From assembly GCF_024298765.1 (NCBI RefSeq), contig NZ_CP101210.1: a stretch of 64,000 nt of DNA; one strand, given 5' to 3'. Shown here piece after piece: positions 31,811-32,647 of the stretch. Origin of the DNA: Escherichia coli (GTDB lineage Bacteria > Pseudomonadota > Gammaproteobacteria > Enterobacterales > Enterobacteriaceae). The notes below the pieces were generated by a model that made no database searches, was not told the origin of the DNA, and saw only the letters and a program-made list of their open reading frames with translations. How positions within the stretch are numbered: the stretch's first letter is position 1; each line of letters opens with the position of its first letter. Position numbers and translations under genes: made by a program.

Positions 31811-32286
31811 CAGTGGCGTATATTGCCATCGGCAGCAATCTGGCCTCTCCGCTGGAGCAGGTCAATGCTGCCCTGAAAGCATTAGGCGATATTCCAGAAA
31901 GCCGCATTCTTGCTGTTTCTTCGTTTTACCGCACCCCACCGCTGGGGCCGCAAGATCAACCCGATTACTTAAATGCAGCCGTCGCGCTGAAAACCACTCT
32001 TGCCCCTGAAGAGCTACTCAATCACACACAGCGTATCGAATTGCAGCAAGGTCGCGTCCGTAAAGCTGAACGCTGGGGACCGCGCACGCTGGATCTCGAC
32101 ATCATGCTGTTTGGTAATGAAGTAATAAATACCGAACGTCTGACCGTTCCGCACTACGATATGAAAAATCGCGGCTTTATGCTGTGGCCACTGTTTGAAA
32201 TTGCGCCGGAATTGCTATTTCCTGATGGCTTATCATTAGTTGAAGCTCTACAGGCAAAAGGCTTTAATGAATTAGATAAGTGGTAA
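31807..32286 (+). CDS. folK: 2-amino-4-hydroxy-6-hydroxymethyldihydropteridine pyrophosphokinase
   Basis: 159-aa [35 protein letters not shown]...; ATGA overlap with the pcnB stop. Confidence 0.93.
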
Positions 32287-32647
32287 TTATTATTCGTGTG
32301 AATATAAATATATTCTGAAAACAACCTCAAGTTATTGCCAAAACAATATCATTAAGATAAATAAAATTTTAGAAAATATAATATACCTTCCCGTAATTCT
32401 CACGCCATACACTATCCCTCTTAGCTTTCAAATTTAATTTTACTAACTTTTATTTTTAGTAAAATTAAATTGCATATGCTATCACATTATGCAAAATAGC
32501 CATCCCGATGATGAATGAATGTAATAGTTGGTAAACAACAGACAAACATCATTAACACAGTAACGATTTTGTTACGCAGCATTGCAGCAGACTCTTATCG
32601 TCATGCGGTGCGGTTATCTCTCTATGGAATATTATTCAAGGATTTTT
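32287..32647 (+). promoter_or_regulatory. AT-rich upstream regulatory region of the fimbrial operon
   Basis: About 360 bp of strongly AT-rich, curved-looking DNA (runs such as aaataaaatttt and ttttatttttagtaaaattaaatt) upstream of the first fimbrial gene. This is typical of H-NS-silenced chaperone-usher promoters. Confidence 0.5.

What the first reader, a model, noticed from the sequence alone, without database searches (positions are those of the whole stretch)
32225..32290. Divergent 3' end of folK at the boundary with the fimbrial locus
FolK matches the E. coli enzyme through most of its length, but the last ~20 residues (…[26 protein letters not shown]) differ from the K-12 C-terminus as I remember it (…FPDGEMLRQILHTRAFDKLNKW), with length conserved. 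A change in allele type exactly where the variable fimbrial region begins would mark a recombination junction.
Basis: partly seen in the sequence, partly recalled or inferred. Interest (0 to 1): 0.3.

Follow-up and report, generated by a model that had tools for sequence, protein, structure and literature searches.

The report
folK tail joins swappable fimbrial cassette
The last 18 codons of the folate-pathway gene folK belong, in evolutionary terms, to the neighbouring variable Yad fimbrial gene cluster and are exchanged with it by recombination. This is a real but ordinary edge effect of a variable surface-structure locus.

Summary
FolK in the window ends ...[22 protein letters not shown] and K-12 FolK ends ...FPDG-EMLRQILHTRAFDKLNKW, with the same length; 12 of 18 residues differ.

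Against K-12, nucleotide divergence is 6.4% over folK nt 1-423 and 46% over the tail. It stays at 15-50% through the yad operon and decays inside panB.

The break is a recombination junction. Strains ECE313 and R11 have a window-like folK body (4-5 differences in 404 nt) but other tails (30 differences in the next 76 nt). In 53 of 61 between-type pairs the best breakpoint is folK nt 422-423 (window 32228-32229).

E. coli carries at least six tail types. The window's type A is in about 560 of 5,426 complete genomes.

The tail lies outside the Pfam HPPK domain, is AT-rich like the fimbrial region (32% versus 52% GC), and is still predicted to form the C-terminal helix.

Species with panB directly after folK keep a consensus tail (...AEKPAxW). 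Every species with a fimbrial operon inserted there has a deviant tail.

No integrase, displaced folK fragment or Chi site marks the junction.

The yad diversity is published, but I found no description of folK's tail taking part in it. Interest is low to moderate.

The parts
31807..32210 (+). folK body (codons 1-134), the conserved HPPK domain
   Evidence: Pfam PF01288 covers residues 5-134. Divergence from strains of other tail types, by segment, is 0.7-16.4%. GC is 52%.
32211..32229 (+). Junction zone (codons 135-141, E-L-L-F-P-D-G)
   Evidence: Type-specific SNPs start at gene nt 405. Max-chi2 breakpoints fall at nt 404-423. Divergence here is 21-32% for other types.
32230..32286 (+). Variable folK tail (codons 142-159 plus stop), type [19 protein letters not shown]
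   Evidence: Divergence is 41-45% from types B and D and 53-84% from type C. GC is 31.6%. Predicted helix 144-151 plus terminal bridge, pLDDT 91-95. It lies outside the Pfam domain.
32287..32647 (+). folK-yadN intergenic region, AT-rich and type-specific
   Evidence: GC is about 24-27%. Divergence is 42-59% from other types and 17-18% within type A. Tail plus intergenic region matched at >=80% coverage in 559 genomes.
32648..33238 (+). yadN-type major fimbrial subunit
   Evidence: Pfam Fimbrial. Annotated as fimbrial protein in strain 104. 16-27% nt divergent from B and D types.
33347..34087 (+). yadV chaperone
   Evidence: Pfam PapD_N and PapD_C; annotation.
34122..36722 (+). htrE usher
   Evidence: Pfam Usher, PapC_N and PapC_C; annotation.
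36739..38554 (+). Minor subunit genes yadM, yadL and yadK
   Evidence: Annotation of strain 104. 22-37% divergent from K-12-type alleles.
38604..39869 (+). yadC-type tip adhesin
   Evidence: Pfam Fimbrial in the C-terminal part. 27-37% divergent from B and D types.
39880..39902 (+). GC-rich hairpin after yadC (terminator-like), the last island-specific sequence
   Evidence: GCACCGCCAGACAACGGCGGTGC.
39911..40775 (+). Conserved panB promoter block (from 70 nt upstream of the ATG) and panB, the right-hand flank of the cassette
   Evidence: The promoter block aligns with most species that lack the insertion. Divergence decays gradually in panB.

Best explanation
The segment from folK codon ~135-142 to about 70 nt upstream of panB (window ~32211-39910) is one hypervariable cassette. 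It holds the C-terminal tail of FolK, an AT-rich regulatory spacer and the seven-gene Yad chaperone-usher fimbrial operon.

E. coli maintains several very old allelic lineages of this cassette. They move between strains by homologous recombination, with crossovers in the conserved flanks (the folK body and pcnB on the left, panB on the right).

The last 18 codons of folK lie outside the conserved HPPK domain and need only keep an amphipathic helix ending in W. They have therefore diverged almost to saturation and drifted to the AT-rich composition of the island. Recombination between types cannot resolve inside them, so every exchange carries the donor's tail along.

The result is a sharp, shared step in divergence right after the conserved FPDG codons.

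Shown: the step, the mosaics, the tail types and their frequencies, the compositional break, the retained predicted fold, and the link between insertion and deviant tails across genera.

Inferred: the age of the lineages, diversifying selection on the fimbriae as the cause of their maintenance, and functional neutrality of the tail variants.
For: - **Step in divergence.** Window versus K-12 is 2-8% per 100 nt across folK, then 36-48% from 32200, and stays high to about 39900.
- **Breakpoint statistics.** Breaks fall at nt 404-422, permutation p <= 0.001. 53 of 61 between-type pairs break at nt 422-423.
- **Mosaics.** ECE313 and R11 differ from the window by 0.8% in folK nt 281-404 and by 44% in the tail. 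L099 is 100% identical to R11 in the folK body next to a different tail and a different operon family. L095 combines an R11-like yadN (97%) with yet another tail and spacer.
- **Discrete tail types linked to spacer types, in genome counts.** A 559-560, B 2950-3063, C about 437, D about 1070 of 5,426.
- **Composition.** Body 52% GC; tails 16-43%.
- **Comparative pattern.** In 66 species with panB directly after folK, the tail is the consensus ...AEKPAxW and its GC equals the body's (+1.2 +/- 4.3). All 11-12 species with a fimbrial operon between the two genes have deviant tails.
- **Homology of the tails.** Intermediate tails exist, such as LFLNKLLHKKGFTKPDKW and ALLQNILNTRNFSQPAIW, so the tails are diverged homologues and not unrelated DNA.
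- **Weak constraint.** The Pfam domain ends at residue 134. HPPK tails are hypervariable across Gammaproteobacteria. IS1 insertions replace the last residues of FolK in two sequenced strains.
- **Fold retained.** AF2 pLDDT 94.8, with helix 144-151.
- **Literature.** Yad subtypes and inter-phylogroup recombination are described in PMC13245861. Yad/Sta as an ancient fimbrial locus at a fixed position is described in PMC3559732. Swapping of surface-antigen clusters by recombination in flanking genes is described in PMC7685785.
Against: - The uniform breakpoint could partly reflect where protein constraint ends, not where crossovers occur. Some folK bodies are themselves 10-17% divergent, so for those pairs the step alone does not prove recombination.
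- No donor lineage for the strongly derived A, B and D tails was found.
- The detailed analysis rests on 16 E. coli loci plus BLAST counts. About 300-400 genomes were not assigned to a type.
- Neutrality of the tail variants is untested.
Confidence: 0.8

Rival explanations
1. There is no recombination. The tail is simply the unconstrained, fast-evolving end of FolK and has diverged in place along clonal lineages.
For: The tail lies outside the Pfam domain. It is hypervariable across Gammaproteobacteria. IS1-truncated tails are tolerated. The breakpoint coincides with the last conserved codons, FPDG.
Against: - Bodies that are nearly identical at synonymous sites carry tails 44% divergent (ECE313, R11, L099).
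- Within a type, the tail is identical on bodies 10% divergent (H22).
- In 66 species without the insertion, the tail keeps a consensus and the GC of the body.
Confidence: 0.07
2. A site-specific integrative island targets the 3' end of folK and brings a substitute gene end, as prophages e14 and 21 do at icd and as islands do at tRNA genes.
For: The left boundary lies at the same codon in several genera. The tail has island-like composition.
Against: - The operon holds only fimbrial genes and no integrase.
- No displaced folK tail or direct repeat lies at the panB end. yadC is followed by a hairpin and then the ancestral panB promoter.
- The tails form a graded homologous series.
Confidence: 0.03
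3. The tail is shaped by selection on DNA function. The AT-rich H-NS-silenced control region of yadN extends into folK's 3' end, so tail sequence co-evolves with each operon type's regulation.
For: - Tail GC is 16-37% in yad types, continuous with the 21-30% GC spacer.
- Tail and spacer types are linked.
- yad is a cryptic, silenced operon in K-12. This rests on my own knowledge of Korea et al. 2010, which I did not check here.
Against: - Promoter-like matches near the tail are no more frequent than in shuffled sequence.
- No direct binding or expression data exist.
- Citrobacter and Pseudocitrobacter tails next to insertions are not AT-rich.
- This reading would complement the recombination account, not replace it.
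Confidence: 0.1

Closest known systems
Mosaic housekeeping genes flanking the O-antigen cluster (galF and gnd next to rfb) in E. coli
   Same: A housekeeping gene abuts a diversifying surface-structure locus. [quoted passage not shown] The flanks show raised, mosaic polymorphism that decays with distance.
   Different: Here the boundary lies inside the coding sequence of an essential enzyme gene, so the enzyme has alternative C-termini. The gnd hitchhiking literature (Nelson and Selander 1994) is cited from memory and was not checked.
Yad (E. coli) / Sta (Salmonella) gamma-type chaperone-usher fimbrial locus
   Same: Same locus and gene order as K-12 yadN-yadV-htrE-yadM-yadL-yadK-yadC. Published work describes subtypes, including two in phylogroup B2, the absence of true Yad in phylogroups D and E, and recombination between phylogroups (PMC13245861). 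It also describes the locus as ancient and fixed in position (PMC3559732).
   Different: Those papers do not mention folK or panB (0 occurrences). That folK's last 18 codons belong to the variable unit appears to be undescribed.
Prophage or island insertion into a gene's 3' end with a substitute end (icd/e14, tRNA and tmRNA att sites)
   Same: The gene end next to the island differs from the ancestral end while the gene stays intact.
   Different: There is no integrase, no att repeats and no displaced original end. The mechanism here is homologous, not site-specific.

Membership tests
Recombination junction at the flank of a hypervariable surface-structure locus | Abrupt, statistically supported change in divergence within or next to the flanking core gene | tested here: met
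   Max-chi2 breakpoint at nt 404-422, permutation p <= 0.001; Fisher p from 1e-8 to 1e-19. Diversity profile.
Recombination junction at the flank of a hypervariable surface-structure locus | Incongruent histories on the two sides of the junction (the same allele on one side paired with different alleles on the other) | tested here: met
   ECE313, R11 and L099 have the same folK body with different tails. H22 has the same tail on a different body.
Recombination junction at the flank of a hypervariable surface-structure locus | Raised polymorphism in flanking core genes that decays with distance | tested here: met
   On the left, divergence is 0.2-2% in dksA, 3-18% in the pcnB 3' part and 0.7-17% in the folK body. 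On the right, panB falls from 2-14% to 3-9%. Only 12 strains were compared.
Recombination junction at the flank of a hypervariable surface-structure locus | Allele types distributed discordantly with the species phylogeny | not tested
   No core-genome tree was built. The indirect support is published: two Yad subtypes in phylogroup B2.
Site-specific integrative island with a substitute gene end | Integrase or recombinase gene within the island | tested here: not met
   All ORFs between folK and panB are fimbrial.
Site-specific integrative island with a substitute gene end | Direct repeat or displaced original 3' end at the far end of the island | tested here: not met
   The 200 nt upstream of panB hold the yadC end, a hairpin and the ancestral panB promoter. 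No folK-tail remnant is present.
HPPK (FolK, PF01288) | Full-length match to the HPPK domain and to solved E. coli HPPK structures | tested here: met
   Pfam E = 8.5e-39 over residues 5-134. PDB E. coli HPPK E = 1e-93. AF2 pLDDT 94.8.
HPPK (FolK, PF01288) | Enzymatic activity retained with the variant tail | not testable with these tools
   Inferred from the essentiality of folK and from the tail's presence in about 560 complete genomes.
Yad-type chaperone-usher fimbrial operon | Major subunit, PapD-like chaperone, usher, three minor subunits and a two-domain adhesin, in K-12 yad order between folK and panB | tested here: met
   Annotations; Pfam. YadV is 86% identical to K-12 at the protein level. 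The best usher segment from tblastn is 54% identical, and htrE is about 19% divergent at nucleotide level.

The most novel reading that the evidence does not exclude
The C-terminal helix of an essential folate enzyme is in effect an accessory, swappable element. Across several genera (Escherichia, Citrobacter, Pseudocitrobacter, Superficieibacter), any fimbrial operon lodged between folK and panB comes with its own folK tail. In E. coli that tail may double as part of the AT-rich silencing and regulatory region of the fimbrial promoter, so an essential gene's coding sequence would be shaped by its neighbour's regulation.
Probability: 0.1. Interest if true: 0.45.

Novelty: new member of a known kind. 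Interest (0 to 1): 0.27.

Why it matters
- **Cassette boundaries.** It fixes the left edge of the Yad fimbrial cassette at folK codon ~135-142 and the right edge at about 70 nt upstream of panB. That helps with typing Yad variants and with designing allele swaps or deletions that keep folK and the panB promoter intact.
- **Multiple natural FolK termini.** E. coli FolK (HPPK), a structural model enzyme and antifolate target, exists in at least six natural C-terminal versions. The K-12 form used in nearly all structures is in roughly 55% of complete genomes.
- **Recombination-aware analyses.** It is a clean example of how a variable surface locus imprints on a neighbouring essential gene. folK, pcnB and panB should be masked or treated with care in such phylogenies.
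- **Scope.** It does not reveal a new mechanism.

Tried and rejected
- **Donor search for the A, B and D tails.** A search with the C-terminal 49 aa returned only short fragment proteins. It was useful only for showing intermediate tails. The exhaustive HMMER search of 1.84 billion representatives found no non-Escherichia FolK with an F-x-E-L-N-K-W tail. The donor remains unidentified.
- **Displaced folK tail near panB.** None found.
- **Chi-site hotspot at the junction.** There is no Chi site between 24241 and 39837.
- **Structured RNA, terminator or promoter overlapping the tail.** Rfam gave only a sub-threshold eukaryotic snoRNA chance hit. No plus-strand terminator follows folK, and promoter-like matches are at the shuffled expectation.
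- **Literature on folK plus fimbriae.** Nothing relevant was found. "folK" collides with "folk" in full-text search.
- **Artefact or strain-private mutation.** Rejected: the allele is in 559 complete genomes, and the window equals strain 104 apart from 2 SNPs in 19.8 kb.

Full report
**Observation**

Window 31807-32286 (+) is folK (159 aa). It overlaps the pcnB stop and is followed by a 361-nt AT-rich spacer and a seven-gene chaperone-usher fimbrial operon (yadN-type subunit, yadV, htrE, yadM, yadL, yadK, yadC-type adhesin), then panB at 39981. The window matches E. coli strain 104 (chicken, China) apart from 2 SNPs in 19.8 kb.

Twelve of the 18 residues after FPDG differ, and the length is the same.

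**Is it more than chance, and is divergence uniform?**

A pairwise alignment of 19.8 kb with K-12 shows 0-8% divergence per 100 nt from mrcB to the folK body. There are two local exceptions. One is 9-13% within gluQRS at about 29900-30100. The other is an indel-dominated stretch of 28-45% at about 24900-25100, between hrpB and mrcB. Divergence then jumps to 36-48% from about 32200. It stays at 15-55% through the whole operon and decays gradually inside panB (15, 10, 6, 8, 4, 1%).

Within folK, window versus K-12 has 27 differences in nt 1-423 (6.4%) and 25 in nt 424-477 (46.3%), Fisher p = 4e-13. The max-chi2 breakpoint is gene nt 422, which is window 32228, with permutation p <= 0.001. The type-specific haplotype starts at nt 405, window 32211.

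**What it is**

Sixteen E. coli loci were compared. Fourteen are complete-genome records from the E. coli collection and two are E. coli-named species representatives from the genome-contig scan (SCPM-O-B-8794 and E69). They show discrete tail types that all switch straight after the conserved FPDG codons:

| Type | Tail | Examples |
|---|---|---|
| A | [18 protein letters not shown] | window, strain 104, NU14, H22 |
| B | EMLRQILHTRAFDKLNKW and close variants | K-12, O26, ECE313 |
| C | ETLREILTSLAVLQPAIW(Y) | O157:H7, 88COLEC |
| D | T(I/V/A/G)L(E/D/G)NLL..NKF.ELNKW | R11, ETEC4079, 2017.06.04CC, 2020CK-00188, SCPM-O-B-8794 |

. Metagenomic contigs add two more. Type E is LFLNKLLHKKGFTKPDKW and type F is ALLQNILNTRNFSQPAIW. 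Both sit on E. coli folK bodies and both are followed by fimbrial operons.

BLAST with tail plus spacer, over 5,426 complete genomes, gives these approximate counts:

| Type | Genomes |
|---|---|
| A | 560 (78 at >=99% to the window) |
| B | 2950-3063 |
| C family | about 437 |
| D family | about 1070 |

Some 300-400 genomes remain unassigned.

**Evidence for recombination rather than local fast evolution**

- ECE313 (B tail) and R11 (D tail) differ from the window by 4-5 nt in the first 404 nt of folK and by 30 nt in the last 76. By segment this is 0.8% (nt 281-404), then 26% (nt 405-423), then 44% (tail).
- L099 is 100% identical to R11 over the last 127 nt of the body but has an F tail and an O157/E. 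albertii-like operon. L095 has an R11-like yadN (97%) behind a different tail and spacer.
- H22 shares the A tail exactly but is 13-18% divergent in the pcnB 3' part and folK nt 1-280, with a breakpoint near nt 252.
- In 53 of 61 between-type pairs the best breakpoint is nt 422-423.

**Why the boundary sits there**

- The Pfam HPPK model ends at residue 134.
- F138, P139 and the terminal W159 are nearly invariant in a 49-sequence alignment.
- HPPK tails vary freely in sequence and length across Gammaproteobacteria.
- Two sequenced strains carry IS1 insertions that replace the last 3-4 residues of FolK, including the terminal W.

The tail is therefore weakly constrained. Its hydrophobic pattern (L144, L148, F153/L, L156, W159) is kept across the A, B and D types. 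The AlphaFold model (pLDDT 94.8) places a helix at 144-151 and a terminal bridge at 157-158 with pLDDT 91-95.

Once tails are 40-50% divergent, homologous exchange between types cannot resolve inside them. Crossovers must then fall in the conserved body, which keeps the step sharp. This last step is inference.

**Composition and comparative evidence**

The folK body is 52% GC. The tails are 31.6% (A), 32-37% (B), 16-26% (D) and 42-43% (C), and the spacer is 21-30%.

Among 80 species-representative loci, 66 have panB about 120 nt after folK. Their tail is the consensus FPDG-x-x-L-x-x-x-L-x-x-L-x-A-E-K-P-A-x-W, and its GC matches the body's (+1.2 +/- 4.3). All 11-12 genomes with a chaperone-usher operon between folK and panB have non-consensus tails. 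They include E. albertii, E. whittamii, other Escherichia lineages, three Pseudocitrobacter, four Citrobacter and Superficieibacter. AT-richness of the tail is specific to Escherichia.

The C tail still resembles the consensus, whereas A, B and D are strongly derived. Intermediate tails link them, so they are diverged homologues.

The 70 nt upstream of panB (the promoter block) are shared by E. coli and most of the aligned species. This places the right edge of the insertion at about 39910, after a hairpin at 39880-39902.

**Alternatives rejected**

- *Site-specific island with a substitute gene end (icd/e14-like).* There is no integrase, no att repeats and no displaced tail.
- *Chi hotspot.* No Chi site lies between 24241 and 39837.
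- *Overlapping RNA, terminator or promoter.* Nothing exceeds chance.
- *Pure relaxed constraint without recombination.* The mosaics contradict it.

**Comparison with what is known**

Yad allelic diversity, two B2 subtypes, absence of true Yad in phylogroups D and E, and inter-phylogroup recombination are published (PMC13245861). Yad/Sta is regarded as an ancient fimbrial type at a fixed locus (PMC3559732). Neither paper mentions folK or panB.

The general mechanism, replacement of a surface-structure cluster by homologous recombination in flanking housekeeping genes, is textbook for the O-antigen galF-gnd locus (PMC7685785).

The finding is thus a new, well-defined instance of a known kind. 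Its one particular feature is that the boundary lies inside an essential gene, which gives FolK several natural C-termini.

**Verdict**

The feature is ordinary in mechanism and modest in interest (0.27). The most novel reading still open is that the tail doubles as fimbrial regulatory DNA and that this holds generally across genera. It is unsupported by direct data, and I put its probability at about 0.1.

Noticed in passing
L090 (E. coli 23CRST024) 9379-10558; L091 (LB858871) 9379-10603: IS1 is inserted into the folK tail and most of the fimbrial operon is deleted. FolK then ends ...FDKL-VMTPTY (162 aa) or ...AVLQ-TCR (158 aa), so the last residues, including the terminal W, are replaced in viable strains.
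   Followed up: partly
L008 (E. coli H22) 8098-9750; L009 (SCPM-O-B-8794): A 13-18% divergent block spans the pcnB 3' part and folK nt 1-~252 (FolK starts VTIAYI...AVKALSEIPQSK). It looks like an import from a distant Escherichia lineage and ends inside folK, upstream of an A tail identical to the window's.
   Followed up: partly
window 32431-32446 and 32456-32471: A perfect 16-nt inverted repeat (AATTTAATTTTACTAA / TTAGTAAAATTAAATT, 9-nt spacer) lies in the folK-yadN spacer. It may be a regulator-binding palindrome. The equivalent K-12 region is similar but not identical.
   Followed up: no
window 39838-39845 (-) and 40334-40341 (+): Chi sites sit at the very end of yadC and in panB, while none occurs between 24241 and 39837. 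The whole window has 19 Chi sites against about 2 expected from shuffles.
   Followed up: no
window ~24900-25100: The hrpB-mrcB intergenic region differs from K-12 by an indel of about 100 nt, which shows as 28-45% apparent divergence in the pairwise alignment.
   Followed up: no
window ~41700-42150: Downstream of panC the window stops aligning with K-12. In strain 104 this region holds a small transposase remnant and an Rpn-family nuclease gene instead of K-12 rpnC.
   Followed up: no
window 29900-30100 (gluQRS): There is a local peak of 9-13% divergence from K-12 inside gluQRS, well above the neighbouring 0-5%. It suggests another small recombination tract.
   Followed up: no
L005 (O26 RM10386) 16224-17567; L094 (ETEC4079) 14953-15571; L093 16112-17391; L092 14861-15468: Adhesin or minor-subunit genes of the operon are annotated as pseudogenes (internal stop or frameshift) in several strains.
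   Followed up: no
L001 (K-12 MG1655 isolate NZ_CP174267), folK codon 50: This K-12 record encodes N50 (PQNQPDY), where the PDB E. coli HPPK sequences and all other strains examined have D50.
   Followed up: no
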